In this document: one piece after another, positions 1,039-17,842 of the stretch
How positions within the stretch are numbered: position 1 is the stretch's first letter
Layout of the letters: every line of letters starts with the position of its first letter
NCBI GenBank assembly: GCA_019694515.1
Contig: JAIBBU010000007.1
Coordinates: 6,573-70,572, forward strand
DNA from: Oligoflexia bacterium
GTDB taxonomy: Bacteria; Bdellovibrionota_C; UBA2361; JBGSMV01
DNA length: 64,000 nucleotides
Direction: 5' to 3'
Made by a program: the position numbers and the translations under genes
The notes under the pieces: model-generated
Told to the model about the DNA's origin: nothing
The model's database searches: none
The model's input: the letters and a program-made list of their open reading frames with translations, nothing else

Positions 1039-1629
1039 ATGAAATCAAAACTACTTCTGATCGCTGCAGCCTTCTTGCTTCCGGCTTCCGCGTTTGCGGC
1101 GCATTACGCCATCGACCCTGATCACAGCAACGTAACCTTTAAGGTCAGGCATCTGGCAATTTCTTCGGTCTCGGGGCGGTTTGCGGAATTTTCCGGCTCG
1201 TTTGATTACGATCCGGCAAAAATCGAACAGTCAAAGACTGAAGCGCTGATCAAGACTGTCAGTATCGATACCCGTCAGAAGAAGCGAGACGATCATTTGC
1301 GTAGCCCCGACTTCTTCGATGCAGCGCAGTTTCCGGAGATTAAATTTGTCAGCAAGGGCATTAAAAAGGCCACTGCGGAGGGTTTCGAACTAAGCGGCGA
1401 TCTAACGATGCGGGGCGTAGTTAAGCCGGTCGTATTGAATGTGGAGTTTGGCGGCTTGGCCAAGGACCCCTTTGGAAATGAGCGCGCCGCTTTTACCGCA
1501 ACGACAAAGCTTAATCGCAAGGATTGGGGAGTAAGCTGGAGTAAGGTGCTGGATAGCGGAGCGCTGGTAGTTGGCGACGAGGTTTCAGTTACCTTGGAGA
1601 TCGAAGGGATTCAACAGACCGCGGGATAA
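1039..1629 (+). CDS. YceI-family periplasmic protein (signal peptide)
   Basis: Signal peptide, then HYAIDPDHSNVTFKVRHLAISSVSGRFAEFSG, the YceI signature. GGAGG ribosome-binding site 6 nt upstream. Confidence 0.85.
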   Translation: MKSKLLLIAAAFLLPASAFAAHYAIDPDHSNVTFKVRHLAISSVSGRFAEFSGSFDYDPAKIEQSKTEALIKTVSIDTRQKKRDDHLRSPDFFDAAQFPEIKFVSKGIKKATAEGFELSGDLTMRGVVKPVVLNVEFGGLAKDPFGNERAAFTATTKLNRKDWGVSWSKVLDSGALVVGDEVSVTLEIEGIQQTAG

Positions 1630-1657
1630 TACGCTGTCAGTCTTGATCTCGCCCCGC

Positions 1658-2053
1658 CTATTTTACAGTACTTATGAAATAGGCGGCGGCGCCCATTACT
1701 GCGCTAAAAAATAGGCAGTAAGGAATCCCTAAGACCATCAGGACGAACAGGAACAGATCCACCCGCGGCCGGATCACCGGCATTCCACCCCACAAGATCA
1801 ATGCAAAAGCTGCCGCACCTCCTACTATTGCGAGCGCCACCAGCCACGAGCGCCTGGCCCGTAAGAAGTAAATCGTTGCAATCGAACACAGCAGCGCCAG
1901 CAGCTGTCCTAGCACCGGAATAAAGATAGCGGTCATGATCAAAAACGGAGTGGAGATCAGCGAAAACAAGAGCCAGCCGACGGCCTCTCTTCGTTCTGCG
2001 GGTGCGAGCAGAAAGCTGCATCGTTCTGGAGAAAATATCGCGGGTCCACTCAT
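1658..2053 (-). CDS. ExoD-family membrane protein (exopolysaccharide synthesis)
   Basis: 131 aa with 3-4 TM segments. Size and hydrophobic layout fit ExoD-like proteins. Convergent with the YceI gene. Confidence 0.6.
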   Translation of the reverse strand: MSGPAIFSPERCSFLLAPAERREAVGWLLFSLISTPFLIMTAIFIPVLGQLLALLCSIATIYFLRARRSWLVALAIVGGAAAFALILWGGMPVIRPRVDLFLFVLMVLGIPYCLFFSAVMGAAAYFISTVK

Positions 2054-2207
2054 GCGGGCGTTATTGTAGTCCGGCTTTGCGCAGTTTGTAATGTTGAAAA
2101 TGCAGCTCCGGATAGAGGGGCCTCAATTAAACGGATTGTTAGAACGGCAACCCTCTGTTAGTTTCAAAATGCTGTATTGTAAAAAGTTGATTGGTTCAGA
2201 GGCCCCT

Positions 2208-3893
2208 ATGAAATTCGGTTTGCGACTAGCTATTAGTCTATGTGCTTTGCTTGGGTTAGCTCCGCTAGAACTCGCGGCCATAACGATCGATCACTTTAAC
2301 GACAATCAGTTCGTTCAAACCCCGCCCTCCCCAACGCAGGGCACCCTTACCCCTGTAACTGCCCTTGGCGGGAGCCGGAAGATCCAAGCTAATAAGACCG
2401 TGGGTATTGGTCGGGTGAGCGGGGAGGTGTTCCTTGATACCTCGGTTTCTCCCAGTGTCGGCGCTTACTTTCATTCCCAGGACGCCGGCGTGAGCGGTGA
2501 TACCACGCTGATTTATGATGGCACCGTGGGACCCAGTTTAGACGGCGATGGGCTCGGCGGAATAGATTTTACTCGCGATGGCGGGTCCGCTTTTCTGCTC
2601 AAGACTTTGAACTTCAATCCGCCCGATTCAGGCGGTGTTCAAGCTAAAATCACCGTCACAAAGGCTTCGAATCCGGCGACACAGGCAAGTGTAGTATTGG
2701 CCATTACCACCTCGGGCGATCTCCTATTTCCCTTTTCCGGGTTCTTAATCGGCGGAAACCCCGCTAATCCATTTCCTTTTGCTGAGGTCGGCTCGGTACA
2801 GCTTCAGATCATCGGAGGACCCGCAGCTGATCTGGCCATTGATTGGTTCGGCACTAATGGCCGCTGCGATCTGATTCCCCTATCCTCTACCCAGGTGATC
2901 GTGGATGAGTGCGGAGTGTGCGGCGGAGACAACTCCACCTGTAAAGACTGTCTCGGAATACCAAATGGCCCCGCCCTTCCCGGTACGGCCTGCCAAACCG
3001 GGGTCAATGGACCTCCCAACTGTTCGACGAGCAGCTGGCAGCAGGTCGGTATTGCCATCCCAATTCAATGTTCCTGTACGCCAGTGCCCCAGCCTGAGAT
3101 CTGTGATGAGCTGGATAACAACTGTAACGGGCAGATCGATGAGGCCTTCCCACTCAAGGGACAGACCTGTGGTATCGGCAGCAACGGTTGCACGGCAGAA
3201 GGGACATATATCTGCAGCGAGAACGGCGGACTTTTCTGTACTGCCGAAAATCTGCAGCCCGAGGTGGACGAGTGCGAGAATTCACGTGGCTGTGATGGGG
3301 TTCCATATAGCGGGCTGGTTTACGATCAGTGTGAAGTATGCGGAGGAAACGGCACCTCTTGTTTAGACTGCGCCGGAACTCCGAATGGCATCGCCACAGT
3401 GGATAGCTGCGGGGTCTGCCAAGGAGATGGATCCACCTGTATTAGCTGTGATGAGAAGGAGAACACCGAGCACCAGGCAGCCCTAGATGGCACCGCCAAG
3501 GCGCAAGAGAAAGTGATCAAACTCGTACTTACCCGTATGCAACGAGAGTTTGGAAAGAAGCCAGGGCTGCTGCCGATGATTGAGGCTTGGAGAGACGAGA
3601 CCCACCGTTTGCAGATTAGGAACTGGATCATCTCGTGGACCCTGCCGAACATTACGGTGCAGTGCGCCAATAAGACCCCGCAGTGTATCACCACCAGCAA
3701 TGAGCCGTTGCTGACCGAGTATCGCAAGCATGCCAAAGAGCTCCGGGAGATGATGGACACGGTGTTGGCCAAATACCGGCAGCTTCTACGCAAGCGCAAG
3801 TTCGGGGGAAATTACGCCAAGATGGCTGAGAAGCTCTATCAACAAGGGCTGACCCTTGCTAATAGCTTCGCTCTTACGCAGGACGACTGTTGA
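2208..3893 (+). CDS. Secreted cysteine-rich repeat protein (three D-x-C-G/E-V-C-G/Q-G-D/N-x-S/T-x-C repeats plus a MopE-like C-D-x-x-D-N-N-C-x-G-x-x-D-E motif)
   Basis: The ORF track starts at 2091, but the signal peptide MKFGLRLAISLCALLGLAPLELAA begins at the ATG at 2208. Repeats: DECGVCGGDNSTC, DQCEVCGGNGTSC, DSCGVCQGDGSTC. ICDELDNNCNGQIDEAF resembles the putative metal-binding (MopE-type) motif common in myxobacterial and planctomycete secreted proteins. Confidence 0.65.
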   Translation: MKFGLRLAISLCALLGLAPLELAAITIDHFNDNQFVQTPPSPTQGTLTPVTALGGSRKIQANKTVGIGRVSGEVFLDTSVSPSVGAYFHSQDAGVSGDTTLIYDGTVGPSLDGDGLGGIDFTRDGGSAFLLKTLNFNPPDSGGVQAKITVTKASNPATQASVVLAITTSGDLLFPFSGFLIGGNPANPFPFAEVGSVQLQIIGGPAADLAIDWFGTNGRCDLIPLSSTQVIVDECGVCGGDNSTCKDCLGIPNGPALPGTACQTGVNGPPNCSTSSWQQVGIAIPIQCSCTPVPQPEICDELDNNCNGQIDEAFPLKGQTCGIGSNGCTAEGTYICSENGGLFCTAENLQPEVDECENSRGCDGVPYSGLVYDQCEVCGGNGTSCLDCAGTPNGIATVDSCGVCQGDGSTCISCDEKENTEHQAALDGTAKAQEKVIKLVLTRMQREFGKKPGLLPMIEAWRDETHRLQIRNWIISWTLPNITVQCANKTPQCITTSNEPLLTEYRKHAKELREMMDTVLAKYRQLLRKRKFGGNYAKMAEKLYQQGLTLANSFALTQDDC

Positions 3894-6048: not shown

Positions 6049-6118
6049 TAATGTTAGGGTTTGCCCGCCTCCGCTCATGCTACGGCGTGACAGGCTTTCG
6101 CGCCGCTCGCAATGACAG
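6049..6118 (-). repeat. Interspersed repeat unit, inverted copy with expanded middle
   Basis: Its reverse complement reads ctgtcattgcgagc...gcaaaccctaacatta. It forms an inverted pair with 5875-5924 around a spacer of about 124 bp, so the whole looks like a roughly 245-bp MITE-like element. Confidence 0.7.
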
Positions 6119-6251
6119 ATCAAAGCGCCGTTGCAGGACCGTAACGCCCGCGATGACACCTTTAAGCATTGCGGTATTAGTTTGCATGAGCGCAATCATG
6201 CAGAACCCCCCAGTTAGCGCCGTATAGTACCTCCAAATCGATGGAGGCATA

Positions 6252-13775: not shown

Positions 13776-14150
13776 ATGATTTCAGTCGAAAAAAGAGTTC
13801 TTTTAGCAGTTAATGGTCTTCCACCCTCCAGGGTTTTGCTCGAACTACAACATGCTGCGCGTGATTCGGATGGACATTGTCATGATCCGTATTCTGTCGG
13901 ATCGCGTGACATCACCACGGAAGAGGCAGCGACCCGAGTTGGACAGCTGGATCTCGATGGCTACCAGGGCGTGGTAAATGGCCGCTTGCTGTGTGTAGAT
14001 CTTCGTCCTGATGAGAGTGGGCAGATCGATTTGACCGACTACTGCCGGCTTAACGGTCCGCAAAGCGGCATGGCTGTCATTCGAGCAGTACGAACTTTAC
14101 TTGGCGTAGAGGAAGGAGCAGCGCTCTTACAGCCTCTAGTTGAGGATTAG
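13776..14150 (+). CDS. Hypothetical small protein
   Basis: 124 aa. AAAGGAAAA ribosome-binding-site-like sequence upstream. No recognisable domain. Confidence 0.45.
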   Translation: MISVEKRVLLAVNGLPPSRVLLELQHAARDSDGHCHDPYSVGSRDITTEEAATRVGQLDLDGYQGVVNGRLLCVDLRPDESGQIDLTDYCRLNGPQSGMAVIRAVRTLLGVEEGAALLQPLVED

Positions 14151-15164: not shown

Positions 15165-15180
15165 CCAACATTTCTTAAGT
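15165..15180 (+). repeat. Direct repeat ccaacatttcttaagt (left copy) flanking the AT-rich cassette
   Basis: An identical 16-mer recurs at 16426-16441. A degenerate third copy (ccccaacatttttcaag) sits at 16406-16423. Confidence 0.7.
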
Positions 15181-15290
15181 GCCAGGCAAGGAGGCTTCGG
15201 TTGGTTGAGCCACCGCGAATGTGGGTGTCTACCTCGACATGGGCTGACTACGACGATTAGCGATAGGCATGGAAGAGCTTCTTCGGCCTT

Positions 15291-15812
15291 CTATTGAATA
15301 AACCGCTCAATGATTTCACCTTCCGATAAATGTTCACGTTTGGCTAACTCGGTTAGTTTGGACGCCACCGATCTCTTAAGCCTAAAAGAACGCATCACCT
15401 TCTTTTCACTCAGCGGAACTACGCGCTTATCTTTTGGCTTAAATTCGGTCCACATTTTAAACATTTCATAGGTAAAACCTTGGTAACTTGGGCCAGTCGG
15501 CGCTTGCAATTTAAGTTGATCGACTATCTCGGTAAGCTGTTTTGGGAGTTTGTTGACATTGATAGCTGTCTTTGGAAAATGAATCACTACTGCAGGTAGT
15601 AATTCTAATACCCGCGGCTCAACGTTCTCGCCAACCCAGAGAGCATCAACGACATTGAACTTTATTGATGGGCGGGCAGGAATCCAATCGACAAGCAATA
15701 AACCCTTAGCTTTTAAGAACCCCAAGACTCTAGTTGCGCGGGGATCCTTGCTGCGTTTTTCATGTAATTGAGCAAGTTCTTTCGCTTTGTCAATAATATC
15801 TTGATCGCGCAT
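15291..15812 (-). CDS. Hypothetical protein with C-terminal ribbon-helix-helix (CopG/antitoxin-like) DNA-binding motif; inside the AT-rich cassette
   Basis: C-terminus KVMRSFRLKRSVASKLTELAKREHLSEGEIIERFIQ fits a beta-strand plus two-helix RHH pattern. The gene is visibly AT-richer than its surroundings. Confidence 0.5.
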   Translation of the reverse strand: MRDQDIIDKAKELAQLHEKRSKDPRATRVLGFLKAKGLLLVDWIPARPSIKFNVVDALWVGENVEPRVLELLPAVVIHFPKTAINVNKLPKQLTEIVDQLKLQAPTGPSYQGFTYEMFKMWTEFKPKDKRVVPLSEKKVMRSFRLKRSVASKLTELAKREHLSEGEIIERFIQ

Positions 15813-15818
15813 ACGAGT

Positions 15819-16313
15819 TTATTTCAAAAACAGATTTATATTGCCGCCATTTTGCCTAATGCACCTGATTAGAGGGGAGCCGTATATCCCAATTGCTTGC
15901 TGAATTAAAAATCGATTCTTGTGGGGTGCCTTCACCGCTTTACTGACAAGCGCAAACAAAGGTTCAATTGCTTCTATTCTTAGGTTGCTTGATTCGTACA
16001 GTAAAATAAACTTAGAATTTGGCGGGATCCAAATCTCTTCGCTATGTTCGTCATAAACGAACCCGAGTCCGAGGAGTACTTCTTTAATTGCGGTTCGTGC
16101 CGACCAATCACACTTAAGCAATGCATCCACATCAACAGTATTTGCCAGCTGAAGTTTAGAATTAACTTCTGGGTTGACGATTAACGAAAACTGACCCAAC
16201 AACGAGATCTCGGCCAGACTCAAGGACAACAAACCGTCTTTGAGTCTTTCCTGATTCAGGACGGTAAGCTTTGCCTCAATTTGCTGCGCAAGTTTCCCAA
16301 GTAGCTCGTTCAT
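15819..16313 (-). CDS. Hypothetical protein (first gene of the AT-rich cassette)
   Basis: 164 aa, 6 bp upstream of the RHH gene on the same strand. Preceded by a very AT-rich 5' region (16314-16400). Confidence 0.5.
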   Translation of the reverse strand: MNELLGKLAQQIEAKLTVLNQERLKDGLLSLSLAEISLLGQFSLIVNPEVNSKLQLANTVDVDALLKCDWSARTAIKEVLLGLGFVYDEHSEEIWIPPNSKFILLYESSNLRIEAIEPLFALVSKAVKAPHKNRFLIQQAIGIYGSPLIRCIRQNGGNINLFLK

Positions 16314-16425
16314 ATATACAGTATAACATTATATATAGGTAATGCAATACAATATTATCATATTGATAACAGTGAATATAATAACTTATCCGGGGTCGGC
16401 TTTCGCCCCCAACATTTTTCAAGCA

Positions 16426-16441
16426 CCAACATTTCTTAAGT
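16426..16441 (+). repeat. Direct repeat ccaacatttcttaagt (right copy)
   Basis: Exact copy of 15165-15180. Confidence 0.7.
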
Positions 16442-16609: not shown

Positions 16610-17842
16610 CTACGAACAGGTCGATGCGTGCCCGACTCCGCTGCTAAGCTCGCTGACAAAGGAACAGGTCACGGTCCCGCCACTGGCTGTGCCTGCGTGA
16701 AGGGCCGCGTCAATTTGAATTTGATTAACGATGATTGTTGCAGAGGCACCGTTGGCGTAGAGGGCGTAGCTGCCTCCTCCATTCAGGGTGGAATGCGTAA
16801 ATTGTATGCGACTATTCGAGGCGTAGATGCCCACCCCGTCGGTGTCAATGGTGGCGCCACTAATGTAAGTAGTGAGGGTAGATCCCGAAGTTAGAATCGC
16901 ATTACCGTTTCCGCCGATAATCCGGAAAGAAGTCCCCTCAACTCGAGCTACCTTCGTAGAGCCGCTTCCCGAGAAATAGGCCCCATAGTCAATCGTGGCA
17001 TTTCCGACTCGGACGGCCGAGTGTCGAAGCAGTACGTCGGCATTGGTGGCGTAGAGCCCGTAGTGACCGGTGCCGGTCGCCCCTGTTACGTCCAAGTAAA
17101 CGTGGTCCAGGAATGTAGTGAAAGTGGATGGATCTGCCGTGTCAGAGGCGCTTATATTTGAGGCACAGATGGCAGTCGCGTGGTTGGTAGTGGCTGCATT
17201 CCTGATTCCCAGATAGGAGAGGGATGCGCCCGAGGATAGATTGAGAAGGCATCCAGAGGCAACCGATCCGGCGCTGATTGAGCCTTCGAGAGTAGTGGCA
17301 TACATCCCGGCGCCCCGAACGTGGACGCCGCTCGGTATCGTCAGCGCAGAATCCACGGCAAAGCTGCCGGGACCGACAATCACCAGGTAAGGATTGTCCT
17401 CCGCAGCATCACTGATGGCGGCGATCGCGGTTGCAAGCGAGCTGTAATCGCCTCCAGAAACTGAGACGCGGATCACATGGTCATCGCGCGTCTCGGTTTC
17501 GAGATCAGAGACTCTGGTGGTAACGGTGCTCAGATCGGAAGCGCTGCTGAAATCGGCGCTGGAATGTCCATCGAGTGTGTCTGCATCGAGTCCACTGCCC
17601 GAGCCGTCTACTCCGGAAATATCACTGAGTAGGGCGCTCGCGGCAGGGCGGTATACTTCCTGGTATTTCGCGGGACAGGTGGATGTCGATGTGGTGAAGG
17701 AGTTTGAGATCTTCACCTTTCCATTGGACAGCTTAACCGTCCTCTTAGCACAGAGCGCACTTTCCGCGTGAACAGATGACGCGATGCAGAGGACTATCAG
17801 AGATAGCGGAAGAAAAATTGCAGCAATCGATTTAGATCTCAT
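16610..17842 (-). CDS. Secreted right-handed beta-helix repeat protein with phage tail-fibre/collar-like N-terminal motif
   Basis: The signal peptide MRSKSIAAIFLPLSLIVLCIASSVHA starts at the ATG at 17842; the ORF track extends to 17983. The motif GSGLDADTLDGHSSADF is followed by Gly/Ser/Thr/Asn-rich beta-helix-like repeats. Confidence 0.65.
   Translation of the reverse strand: MRSKSIAAIFLPLSLIVLCIASSVHAESALCAKRTVKLSNGKVKISNSFTTSTSTCPAKYQEVYRPAASALLSDISGVDGSGSGLDADTLDGHSSADFSSASDLSTVTTRVSDLETETRDDHVIRVSVSGGDYSSLATAIAAISDAAEDNPYLVIVGPGSFAVDSALTIPSGVHVRGAGMYATTLEGSISAGSVASGCLLNLSSGASLSYLGIRNAATTNHATAICASNISASDTADPSTFTTFLDHVYLDVTGATGTGHYGLYATNADVLLRHSAVRVGNATIDYGAYFSGSGSTKVARVEGTSFRIIGGNGNAILTSGSTLTTYISGATIDTDGVGIYASNSRIQFTHSTLNGGGSYALYANGASATIIVNQIQIDAALHAGTASGGTVTCSFVSELSSGVGHASTCS

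What the first reader, a model, noticed from the sequence alone, without database searches (positions are those of the whole stretch)
15165..16441. AT-rich two-gene cassette bracketed by a perfect 16-bp direct repeat: likely a horizontally inserted element
ccaacatttcttaagt occurs at 15165-15180 and 16426-16441, with a degenerate third copy at 16406-16423. It flanks a segment of about 1.25 kb that is visibly much more AT-rich than the neighbourhood. The segment carries two co-oriented ORFs. The downstream one ends in a ribbon-helix-helix (CopG/antitoxin-like) motif, and the upstream one is unrelated to anything I can name. Repeats of this kind resemble att sites or target-site duplications. The content looks like a toxin-antitoxin or small defence/addiction cassette of an uncharacterised type.
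Basis: seen in the sequence. Interest (0 to 1): 0.75.

Follow-up and report, generated by a model that had tools for sequence, protein, structure and literature searches.

The report
Inserted nucleotidyltransferase toxin–antitoxin-like cassette
The repeat-bracketed AT-rich segment is a real, horizontally inserted two-gene operon from an unannotated family found almost only in predatory Bdellovibrionota, and it most likely acts as a nucleotidyltransferase toxin plus DNA-binding antitoxin that left a duplicated target sequence where it inserted.

Summary
The 16-mer is exact at 15165-15180 and 16426-16441, with a 3-mismatch copy at 16409-16424 and no other copy in the 64 kb. The enclosed genes form the lowest-GC kilobase of the window.

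Both ORFs lie on the minus strand. Gene A (15819-16313, 164 aa) matches no Pfam, NCBIfam, PADLOC or PHROG family. Its model is confident (pLDDT 95) and has a polymerase-beta-type nucleotidyltransferase fold. Its nearest solved structures are ANT(2''), the MenT1, MenT4 and TglT toxins, and LnuA. Its T-x-D-x-D, D and K residues never vary.

Gene B (15291-15812, 173 aa) has a helical N-domain with no structural match and a C-terminal ribbon-helix-helix.

A followed by B is conserved in every one of about 60 independent loci, and 26 of 28 named genomes are Bdellovibrionota. A palindromic operator overlaps the promoter. A is degraded beside an intact B in about 10 loci; the reverse occurs once. I therefore read A as the toxin and B as the antitoxin and repressor.

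Five of 46 loci carry locus-specific flanking repeats of 16-113 bp, against 0 of 239 control placements. They include an ftsK 3' end, a tRNA-like 3' end and a terminator hairpin. This resembles the "insertion with long target duplication" known for restriction-modification units.

No empty site was found. Toxicity and the insertion mechanism are inferred, not shown.

The parts
15165..15180 (.). Left (gene-distal) copy of the 16-bp direct repeat CCAACATTTCTTAAGT. It lies 110 bp downstream of gene B's stop and about 100 bp upstream of the 303-aa gene's start.
   Evidence: Exact match. It is the only significant similarity between the 450-bp zones either side of the cassette (score 32; shuffle maximum 23; real-sequence control maximum 30).
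15181..15290 (-). 110-bp spacer between gene B's stop and the left repeat, with host-like composition.
   Evidence: GC 0.573. It is not homologous to the sequence downstream of the cassette in the closest relative.
15291..15812 (-). Gene B, 173 aa. It has a helical N-terminal domain (about residues 1-135) carrying the invariant D56 and E65-P-R-[VI]-x-E-x-L-P-A74 motif, and a C-terminal ribbon-helix-helix (residues 142-172, about 15297-15389). Proposed role: antitoxin and autorepressor.
   Evidence: ORF. RHH_1 hits. Model pLDDT 90.6. Foldseek places the C-terminus on CopG, Arc and VapB, and the N-domain has no PDB match. The family has 351 representatives at 50% clustering. The signature residues are conserved even where A is degraded.
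15819..16313 (-). Gene A, 164 aa, with a polymerase-beta-type nucleotidyltransferase fold. Residues G40, Q41, T59, D61, D63, D88, S91, S124, K125, K128, K132 and N133 are invariant. Proposed role: toxin.
16314..16391 (-). AT-rich promoter/operator region (GC 0.205). The -10-like TATACT is at 16320-16325 and the -35-like TTGCAT at 16342-16347, with a 16-nt spacer. The imperfect palindrome GTATTGCATTAC is at 16339-16350. The perfect palindrome TTATCA-ata-TGATAA is at 16355-16369. The start codon lies 6 nt after the -10 element, which suggests a leaderless or nearly leaderless mRNA.
   Evidence: Sequence. Homologous upstream regions in 35 of 41 loci carry a GTAT(N)TAC palindromic core about 47-51 nt before the A start, followed after about 17 nt by GATAAT. 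Nucleotide homology with the closest relative begins at 16368.
16392..16409 (.). GC-rich hairpin GGGGTCGGCTTTCGCCCC between the repeats and the promoter. On the + strand it looks like a terminator, and its T-run overlaps the degenerate repeat copy.
   Evidence: Terminator-like hit; sequence.
16409..16424 (.). Degenerate third repeat copy CCAACATTTTTCAAGC (3 mismatches), in tandem (17-bp spacing) with the right copy.
16426..16441 (.). Right (gene-proximal) copy of the 16-bp direct repeat. It lies 113 bp upstream of gene A's start and about 170 bp downstream of the 457-aa gene's stop.
   Evidence: Exact match.

Best explanation
The segment is a horizontally acquired, self-contained addiction-type operon of about 1.1 kb, made of an operator/promoter, gene A and gene B. 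It belongs to an unannotated two-gene family that is almost confined to Bdellovibrionota.

Proposed mechanism:
- A is an active polymerase-beta-fold nucleotidyltransferase and acts as the toxin. By analogy with MenT/AbiEii it probably adds nucleotides to an RNA such as tRNA 3' ends. (Inferred.)
- B is the antitoxin. Its novel N-terminal domain neutralises A, by binding and possibly by provoking self-phosphorylation of the T59 that sits two residues before the catalytic D61, as in MenT1 and MenT3. (Inferred.)
- B's C-terminal ribbon-helix-helix dimer binds the palindrome overlapping the -35 element and represses the operon. (Inferred.)
- B is translated by coupling to A. (Inferred.)

The cassette entered the intergenic region between the 457-aa and 303-aa genes. 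The 16-bp direct repeat is most likely the duplicated target or crossover sequence left by that insertion. This is the short end of a range of 16-113 bp locus-specific duplications seen around other members of the family. It is comparable to the 'insertion with long target duplication' described for restriction-modification units, which are another kind of addiction module.

Shown here: the anatomy, the fold, the conservation, the pairing, the variable genomic contexts, the low GC and the enrichment of flanking repeats.
Inferred: toxicity, the toxin's substrate, the mode of neutralisation, operator binding and the insertion mechanism.
For: Foreign composition: this is the lowest-GC kilobase of the window, about 4.6 sd below the mean. 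Cassette GC is below flank GC in nearly all loci.

Conserved pair: A followed by B, with a gap of -4 to about +30 nt, occurs in every locus examined (about 60 independent).

Variable context: the flanks differ between loci, e.g. an ABC ATPase, ftsK, an AAA/DUF58 operon and a GNAT gene. 26 of 28 GTDB-species hits are Bdellovibrionota.

A is an enzyme: the confident model has a nucleotidyltransferase fold, and the hit list is dominated by nucleotidyltransferases, including the MenT1, MenT4 and TglT toxins. T59-x-D61-x-D63, D88 and K125/K128/K132 are the same in nearly every intact copy. The [S/T]-x-D ... K pattern matches the residues shown to be essential in MenT1 (T39, D41, K137) and MenT3 (S78, D80, K189) (PMC11375011, PMC7450476).

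B is a DNA-binding partner: ribbon-helix-helix by Pfam and Foldseek. A palindromic core overlaps the -35 element in 35 of 41 loci.

Direction of toxicity: A is truncated or frameshifted next to a full-length B in about 10 independent loci, and B's signature residues stay intact there. The reverse occurs once, in L036, where only the ribbon-helix-helix is lost.

Repeats: 5 of 46 loci score 32-136 for flanking direct repeats, against 0 of 239 control placements (maximum 30). Each repeat is a different, local sequence:
- the ftsK 3' end, 113 bp at 83% identity (L038)
- a tRNA-like 3' end (L049)
- a terminator hairpin (L055)
- the 3' end of B itself (L029)

No mobility gene lies inside any pair of repeats.

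Precedent: restriction-modification units inserted with long, variable target duplications and no mobility genes (PMC2853133).
Against: - No toxicity, neutralisation, DNA-binding or enzymatic data exist.
- The gene order (proposed toxin first) is opposite to that of MenAT and AbiE.
- The C-terminal position of the ribbon-helix-helix is unusual for type II antitoxins.
- No empty site could be found, so the insertion and the origin of the 16-mer are not demonstrated.
- The window's repeat is only 16 bp, has a tandem degenerate neighbour, and lies 60-110 bp outside the conserved, AT-rich unit.
- 41 of 46 loci have no repeat.
- B stays fully conserved without A, so it may have a function of its own.
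Confidence: 0.55

Rival explanations
1. The cassette is foreign, but the 16-bp repeat has nothing to do with its insertion. On this view it is a pre-existing local repeated motif (for example tandem protein-binding sites or terminator-associated sequence) in the intergenic region, and the cassette happened to land between copies.
For: Two copies already sit in tandem on one side (16409-16424 and 16426-16441), and the degenerate one overlaps the T-run of a hairpin. The repeats lie 60-110 bp outside the AT-rich conserved unit, and the DNA just inside them has host-like GC. 41 of 46 family loci have no repeat. Chance insertion between repeated sequences is a recognised class for restriction-modification units (PMC2853133).
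Against: The motif occurs nowhere else in the 64 kb. An exact 16-mer shared by two 450-bp zones is expected about 4e-5 times by chance. Four other loci of the same family have their own flanking duplications, whereas none of 239 control placements does.
Confidence: 0.22
2. The repeats are attL and attR of a site-specific recombination event catalysed in trans by a tyrosine integrase. The cassette would then be a miniature integrative element, or the last remnant of a prophage or island in which everything except the addictive genes has been deleted.
For: In L049 the repeat is a tRNA-like 3' end and in L038 it is the 3' end of a protein gene, with an exact 31-bp core inside longer imperfect similarity. 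That is the classical att signature. In L015/L059 the cassette lies at the end of a viral contig, 340 bp from a Phage_integrase gene and next to exonuclease and single-strand-annealing genes.
Against: No integrase lies within 10 kb in the window. Only L015/L059 matched that integrase; other integrase types near the remaining loci were not screened. Each locus has a different repeat, and the repeat length varies from 16 to 113 bp. The cassettes share no conserved end sequence that could act as an attP. The 16-mer occurs in viral contigs only at chance frequency. Five independent decays down to exactly the two genes seem unlikely.
Confidence: 0.13
3. The roles are reversed, as in the HepT/MntA type VII systems. 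The nucleotidyltransferase A would be the antitoxin that chemically modifies B, and B would be the toxin.
For: The order, with the nucleotidyltransferase first and the partner second with overlapping or coupled genes, is the canonical antitoxin-then-toxin order and matches MntA-HepT (my own knowledge). B's invariant EPRxxExLPA motif looks like a functional site.
Against: A is lost about 10 times while B stays intact with all its signature residues. That would be lethal if B were an active toxin. B carries the DNA-binding ribbon-helix-helix typical of antitoxins. B shows no HEPN-like fold match and no conserved R-x4-6-H motif.
Confidence: 0.08
4. This is not a toxin-antitoxin pair. A would be a small-molecule nucleotidyltransferase (of the antibiotic- or metabolite-modifying ANT(2'')/Lnu type), and B its ligand-sensing transcriptional regulator, carried as an accessory operon.
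Against: The tight translational coupling, the frequent one-sided decay of A, the consistently low GC, the restriction to one phylum with scattered contexts, and the flanking duplications are all typical of selfish addiction or defence modules. No resistance-family HMM matches A.
Confidence: 0.1

Closest known systems
MenT/AbiEii (DUF1814) nucleotidyltransferase toxins with MenA/AbiEi antitoxins (type IV/VII toxin-antitoxin and abortive-infection systems)
   Same: Both have a polymerase-beta-type nucleotidyltransferase fold; MenT1, MenT4 and TglT are among the top structural hits. Both have an [S/T]-x-D catalytic or phospho-acceptor pattern and a conserved C-terminal Lys (PMC11375011, PMC7450476). 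Both are two-gene operons with autoregulation by the partner.
   Different: A has no sequence match to PF08843 or to any PDB chain. At 164 aa it is much smaller than MenT3 and MenT4 (about 290 aa) and has a long N-terminal helix. No conserved acidic motif IV follows the Lys motif. The nucleotidyltransferase gene comes first, not second. The partner is neither AbiEi (winged HTH) nor MazE-like, but a novel helical domain plus a C-terminal ribbon-helix-helix.
Classical type II toxin-antitoxin modules with ribbon-helix-helix antitoxins (CopG/Arc-type: VapB, ParD, RelB and others)
   Same: Both have a ribbon-helix-helix DNA-binding domain, a palindromic operator at the promoter, small coupled genes, a patchy distribution and low GC.
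   Different: Here the ribbon-helix-helix is at the C-terminus, behind a 135-aa structured domain, rather than at the N-terminus ahead of a short toxin-binding tail. The proposed toxin is encoded first. The toxin fold is a nucleotidyltransferase.
Insertion with long target duplication of restriction-modification gene units (Nobusato 2000; Furuta 2010, PMC2853133)
   Same: In both, an addiction module with no mobility gene is bracketed by direct repeats of local target sequence. The repeats vary in length and often overlap the 3' end of a gene or a tRNA, and the insert has deviant GC.
   Different: Here the cargo is a toxin-antitoxin-like pair rather than a restriction-modification system. The window's duplication is 16 bp, below the 30-bp criterion used in that work; only the relatives (36-113 bp) meet it. 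No empty site is available to prove duplication.
HepT/MntA (HEPN-MNT) type VII toxin-antitoxin systems
   Same: Both have a small nucleotidyltransferase encoded first, with a coupled downstream partner.
   Different: A has no NTP_transf_2 match. The partner is not HEPN. The decay pattern points to the nucleotidyltransferase as the dispensable, toxic partner.

Membership tests
DUF1814 / AbiEii / MenT nucleotidyltransferase toxins | Sequence match to the family model (Pfam PF08843) or to solved members | tested here: not met
   No Pfam hit at E<=1 for the window protein or for any of 16 family members. A profile search of all PDB sequences gave nothing at E<=10.
DUF1814 / AbiEii / MenT nucleotidyltransferase toxins | Polymerase-beta-type nucleotidyltransferase fold with motifs I and II (G-x ... 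D-x-D, plus a third carboxylate) | tested here: met
DUF1814 / AbiEii / MenT nucleotidyltransferase toxins | Ser/Thr two residues before the catalytic Asp (MenT1 T39/D41; MenT3 S78/D80) and a motif III Lys (K137/K189) | tested here: inconclusive
   T59-x-D61 and K125/K128/K132 are invariant, and the pattern matches the papers. A residue-by-residue structural superposition was not available.
DUF1814 / AbiEii / MenT nucleotidyltransferase toxins | C-terminal motif IV with an essential Asp (MenT3 D211, MenT1 D152) | tested here: not met
   No invariant acidic residue follows K132/N133. The conserved positions after it are L136, A140, L148 and G157.
DUF1814 / AbiEii / MenT nucleotidyltransferase toxins | Toxin encoded downstream of its antitoxin (AbiEi, MenA) | tested here: not met
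   The nucleotidyltransferase gene is upstream in all loci.
Type II toxin-antitoxin module with a ribbon-helix-helix antitoxin | Two small adjacent co-oriented genes forming one operon, one of which has a ribbon-helix-helix DNA-binding domain | tested here: met
Type II toxin-antitoxin module with a ribbon-helix-helix antitoxin | Palindromic operator in the module's own promoter | tested here: met
   A GTAT(N)TAC inverted-repeat core overlaps the -35 element in 35 of 41 loci. The window has GTATTGCATTAC and TTATCA-ata-TGATAA. Binding itself was not tested.
Type II toxin-antitoxin module with a ribbon-helix-helix antitoxin | Growth arrest by one protein and neutralisation by the other through direct binding | not testable with these tools
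   The only evidence is indirect. A decays beside an intact B in about 10 loci, against 1 for the reverse. One protein, P0208, reads as an A-B fusion but may be a frameshift artefact.
HEPN-MNT (HepT/MntA) type VII toxin-antitoxin system | Minimal nucleotidyltransferase (NTP_transf_2) paired with a HEPN protein carrying R-x4-6-H | tested here: not met
   No Pfam match. B shows no HEPN structural hit and no conserved R-x4-6-H motif.
Insertion with long target duplication (as defined for restriction-modification units) | Insert under 20 kb carrying the addiction genes and no mobility gene, flanked by direct repeats | tested here: met
   The insert is 1245 bp between the repeats and contains only A and B. 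The same holds in L029, L038, L049 and L055.
Insertion with long target duplication (as defined for restriction-modification units) | Duplication longer than 30 bp | tested here: not met
   The window repeat is 16 bp with no extended similarity. Relatives do meet the criterion, at 36, 47, 57 and 113 bp.
Insertion with long target duplication (as defined for restriction-modification units) | An empty site in a related genome with a single copy of the target | tested here: inconclusive
   The left neighbour has no relatives in the GTDB species set or in JGI metagenomes. Every contig carrying the identical neighbour protein is already occupied.
Integrase-dependent integrative element | Tyrosine or serine recombinase gene within or beside the repeat-bounded unit | tested here: not met
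   None lies within +/-10 kb of the window cassette. Only L015/L059 has an adjacent integrase.
Integron gene cassette | A conserved attC-type imperfect inverted repeat at the cassette end, within an array next to intI | tested here: not met
   Homology between cassettes ends at B's stop codon and 55-90 bp upstream of A. There is no shared terminal structure and no array.
Insertion sequence / transposon | Terminal inverted repeats plus a transposase, with a short fixed-length target duplication | tested here: not met
   There are no terminal inverted repeats and no transposase. The duplications range from 16 to 113 bp.

The most novel reading that the evidence does not exclude
The A-B pair may be a minimal self-mobilising addiction element. 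On this reading a nucleotidyltransferase-fold enzyme and its ribbon-helix-helix partner (or the cell damage they cause) promote their own insertion at the 3' ends or terminators of genes with long, variable target duplication. That would be a mobility mode not yet tied to any enzyme, and it would also bear on the unexplained restriction-modification insertions. A more modest version is a new family of nucleotidyltransferase toxins, confined to predatory Bdellovibrionota, that is controlled by a new antitoxin domain.
Probability: 0.06. Interest if true: 0.85.

Novelty: new variant of a known kind. Interest (0 to 1): 0.5.

Why it matters
If the reading is right, this adds a fourth architecture to the nucleotidyltransferase toxin-antitoxin systems, alongside MenAT, AbiE and HepT/MntA. 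It would have a very small toxin (164 aa), a previously unseen neutralising domain with an invariant EPRxxExLPA motif, and a reversed gene order. Several hundred members exist, almost all in predatory Bdellovibrionota, where toxin-antitoxin and defence biology is little studied.

The recurrent locus-specific duplications (16-113 bp at gene 3' ends, a tRNA-like end and a terminator) extend 'insertion with long target duplication' from restriction-modification units to a toxin-antitoxin-like module. The cassette is small (1.1 kb) and has many natural insertion sites, so it could be a workable system for finding out how addiction modules without mobility genes enter chromosomes.

Tried and rejected
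- Sequence-family searches for both proteins (Pfam, NCBIfam, PADLOC, PHROGs) found only a sub-threshold RHH_1 match.
- Profile searches against all PDB sequences found nothing.
- The AlphaFold-database fold library was not available.
- There is no tRNA in the window. The tRNA-like repeat in L049 is not recognised by ARAGORN or Rfam.
- Empty-site search: the 303-aa neighbour has no relatives in the GTDB species genomes or in JGI metagenomes. The exact-protein look-up returned only occupied sites from the same organism.
- The 16-mer in viral contigs gave 12 single hits, which I judge to be about the chance level, so it is not a phage att site.
- GenBank phages and PLSDB plasmids contain no homologue.
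- Integron cassette, insertion sequence/transposon and HEPN-MNT readings were rejected on their defining features (see the membership test).
- The 323-aa A-B fusion protein P0208 is not used as strong evidence. Its A part diverges at the C-terminus in a way that suggests a frameshift.
Full report
**1. The observation**

The 16-mer CCAACATTTCTTAAGT is exact at 15165-15180 and 16426-16441. A 3-mismatch copy lies at 16409-16424, in tandem with the right copy. Nothing else in the 64 kb matches with up to 3 mismatches; shuffles average 0.36 matches and none of 100 reached 3. The 9-mer core also occurs only at these three places, and the two exact copies share nothing beyond the 16 bp.

The enclosed genes have GC 0.429, against 0.535 +/- 0.026 for 1-kb windows. 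This is the lowest-GC kilobase of the whole window. GC3 is 0.42-0.46, against 0.54-0.66 in neighbouring genes. The compositional boundary follows the promoter-plus-genes unit (15291-16391). The 110 bp and about 35 bp that lie just inside the repeats have host-like GC of 0.57 and 0.56.

**2. Anatomy**

Both ORFs are on the minus strand. Gene A is 15819-16313 (164 aa). Gene B is 15291-15812 (173 aa) and starts 6 nt after A's stop, with no ribosome-binding site between them, which suggests translational coupling.

Upstream of A lies a 78-bp stretch with GC 0.205. It contains TTGCAT, a 16-nt spacer and TATACT, which ends 6 nt before the ATG. It also contains the imperfect palindrome GTATTGCATTAC and the perfect palindrome TTATCA-ata-TGATAA. 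A GC-rich hairpin (16392-16409) separates this promoter region from the repeats.

The neighbourhood is ordinary chromosome: mreB, an RNase E/G gene, FHA proteins, a DEAD-box helicase and a hexapeptide transferase. No integrase or transposase lies within 10 kb. The window comes from an Oligoflexia MAG, a class of the phylum Bdellovibrionota.

**3. The proteins**

- a Helicobacter putative nucleotidyltransferase
- the AbiEi C-terminal domain
- LnuA, MenT4 and TglT

The scores are modest, but the list is consistent. In nearly every intact copy from about 50 loci (two carry a single substitution), G40, Q41, T59, D61, D63, D88, S91, S124, K125, K128, K132 and N133 are identical. The D-x-D lies on predicted strand beta2, and D88 follows the next strand. 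This is the expected nucleotidyltransferase active site.

The T59-x-D61 ... Lys pattern mirrors the residues shown to be essential or phosphorylated in MenT1 (T39, D41, K137) and MenT3 (S78, D80, K189) (PMC11375011, PMC7450476). A does not have the C-terminal acidic motif IV of DUF1814.

*Gene B.* B has a C-terminal ribbon-helix-helix. RHH_1 matches 8 of 14 members, best E 4e-5. Foldseek places the last ~36 residues on CopG (prob 0.89), CdbA, Arc and VapB. The N-terminal ~135 residues form a confident helical domain (pLDDT about 90) with the invariant D56 and E65-P-R-x-x-E-x-L-P-A74. This domain has no convincing match in the PDB.

**4. The family**

A profile of A finds at least 482 clusters at 90% identity. 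All are about 167 aa, unnamed and without Pfam domains. A full HMMER scan with the B profile finds 351 representatives at 50% identity, almost all about 175 aa with the same two-part architecture.

I fetched 75 loci carrying family members (about 60 independent) from exact-protein look-ups, GTDB species genomes, JGI metagenomes and IMG/VR. In every one where the contig allows, A is immediately followed by B, with a gap of -4 to about +30 nt. 26 of 28 GTDB hits are Bdellovibrionota. The exceptions are an Acidobacteriota MAG and a 'Streptomyces' MAG that carries a degraded A.

The flanking genes differ from locus to locus. Cassette GC is lower than flank GC in almost all loci, whatever the host GC.

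The upstream region is conserved. In 35 of 41 loci a GTAT(N)TAC inverted-repeat core, often extended to 10-bp arms, overlaps a TTTACA -35 element. GATAAT follows 17 nt later, and the start codon lies a few nucleotides after that.

**5. Which partner is the toxin**

A is 5'-truncated, frameshifted or C-terminally cut in about 10 independent loci (L006, L026, L033, L037, L039, L040, L041, L042, L069, L071/72 and L074). In each of these B is full-length and keeps every signature residue.

The reverse occurs once. In L036, A is intact and B has lost only its ribbon-helix-helix, keeping the N-domain.

This asymmetry is what one expects if A is toxic and B neutralises it through its N-domain, with the ribbon-helix-helix serving autoregulation. 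It argues against the MntA/HepT-like reversed reading. It does not exclude an independent function for B.

**6. The repeats**

Nucleotide homology between the window and its closest relative (L007/L008; 80% identity, 84-86% at the protein level) covers only 16368..15297. That relative lies directly after an ABC-ATPase gene and lacks the 16-mer. The same holds for other pairs of related cassettes in different contexts. Homology spans 55-90 bp of promoter plus A plus B, with no shared terminal sequence. The repeats are therefore not ends of the element.

I compared the 450-bp zones either side of the cassette by local alignment in 46 independent loci. Five stand out:

| Locus | Score | Repeat |
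|---|---|---|
| L038 | 136 | 113 bp at 83% identity with a 31-bp exact core. It duplicates the last 41 codons and the stop codon of ftsK. |
| L049 | 89 | 57 bp with a 31-bp exact core. It is a tRNA-like 3' end...GGTTCAAATCCTGCCCCCGCTACCA on the other strand. |
| L029 (= L064) | 88 | 47 bp, the 3' end of gene B plus 10 nt, repeated 180 bp upstream of A. |
| L055 | 51 | 36 bp, the terminator-like hairpin that follows the upstream gene. |
| Window | 32 | The 16-mer. |

None of 239 control placements of the same geometry elsewhere in these loci and in the window reaches 32; the maximum is 30.

Each repeat is local sequence and each is different. The spacing is 1.2-1.4 kb, and nothing but A and B lies inside. 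All five upstream copies sit at or just after the 3' end or terminator of the preceding gene.

This is the pattern that Kobayashi's group described for restriction-modification units as 'insertion with long target duplication': long, variable duplications, no mobility genes, often overlapping a gene's 3' end or a tRNA, and an insert of deviant GC (PMC2853133). The L038 and L049 cases, with an exact core inside imperfect similarity, also fit either site-specific recombination or Campbell-type recombination of a circle that carries a copy of the target.

In one element (L015 = L059, an IMG/VR contig) the cassette lies at the contig end. It is 340 bp from a tyrosine integrase gene and next to exonuclease and single-strand-annealing genes. 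Temperate phages can therefore carry it.

**7. What is not shown**

I could not find an empty site. The 303-aa neighbour has no detectable relatives in the GTDB species genomes or in JGI metagenomes. Every contig with the identical neighbour protein already carries the cassette and the repeats. The 16-mer occurs in viral contigs at about the chance level. The window's repeat is short, has a tandem degenerate neighbour that overlaps a hairpin's T-run, and lies outside the AT-rich unit. A pre-existing local repeat therefore remains a real alternative. Toxicity, the toxin's substrate, neutralisation and operator binding are all inferences.

**8. Verdict**

This is a horizontally inserted, uncharacterised toxin-antitoxin-like cassette.

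Three corrections apply. First, the genes are on the minus strand. Second, the upstream protein is a nucleotidyltransferase by fold. Third, the repeat is best read as a locus-specific insertion scar or duplicated target rather than an att site belonging to the element, and most relatives lack one.

It does not qualify as a member of DUF1814/MenT, HEPN-MNT, the integron cassettes or the insertion sequences. I class it as a new variant of the nucleotidyltransferase toxin-antitoxin kind, with moderate interest. Interest would rise if the recurrent target duplications turn out to reflect a mechanism specific to the cassette.

Noticed in passing
L038:4651-4763 and 6072-6184 (Bdellovibrionales MAG JBFWQY010000002.1): The last ~41 codons and the stop codon of ftsK (gamma domain) are duplicated at 83% nucleotide and 88% protein identity on either side of the cassette, with a 31-bp exact core. 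It looks like an att-type or Campbell-type insertion into the 3' end of an essential gene that restores the gene's end.
   Followed up: partly
L049:2317-2373 and 3533-3589: A tRNA-like 3' end (T-arm, acceptor and CCA, on the opposite strand) flanks the cassette on both sides. Neither ARAGORN nor Rfam recognises an intact tRNA at either copy.
   Followed up: partly
L015:1-6489 (IMGVR_UViG_3300025173_000081) and L059: The cassette sits at the very end of two viral-classified contigs; in L015 the contig starts exactly at A's ATG. It is followed by a tyrosine integrase gene (1382-2338, minus strand), an exonuclease gene and a single-strand-annealing protein gene. A temperate phage therefore carries the module next to its presumed att end.
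   Followed up: partly
P0208 (323 aa): A single protein reads as an A-like N-terminal half fused to a full B. It may be a true fusion or a frameshift artefact in a high-GC contig.
   Followed up: partly
L029:4826-4868: A perfect hairpin with an 18-bp stem (aagaaatcttgaggtcac-aaat-gtgacctcaagatttctt) lies between the upstream repeat copy and the cassette promoter. The window (16392-16409) and L055 also have hairpins at the equivalent place. These may be insulating terminators or recombination structures.
   Followed up: no
window:13450-13900: A second AT-rich patch (GC about 0.40-0.44) lies in the intergenic region upstream of a 124-aa ORF (13776-14150). It contains no long ORF.
   Followed up: no
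window:16610-17983 (minus strand): The 457-aa neighbour has no Pfam match. It has a hydrophobic, signal-like segment near its N-terminus and a Gly/Ser/Thr/Ala-rich C-terminal part. Internal DNA repeats recur with 294-bp spacing (16745-16769 and 17039-17063), which suggests a repetitive secreted or surface protein.
   Followed up: no
window:14155-15066 (minus strand): The 303-aa left neighbour has no Pfam match. It has no detectable relative in the GTDB species genomes or in JGI metagenomes, so it appears to be an orphan gene.
   Followed up: partly
L006 ('Xanthomonadaceae' MAG), L021 (Acidobacteriota MAG), L042 ('Streptomyces griseus' MAG): A few family members occur in bins named outside Bdellovibrionota, and two of the three carry a degraded A. 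This could reflect real transfer between phyla or mis-binned contigs.
   Followed up: no
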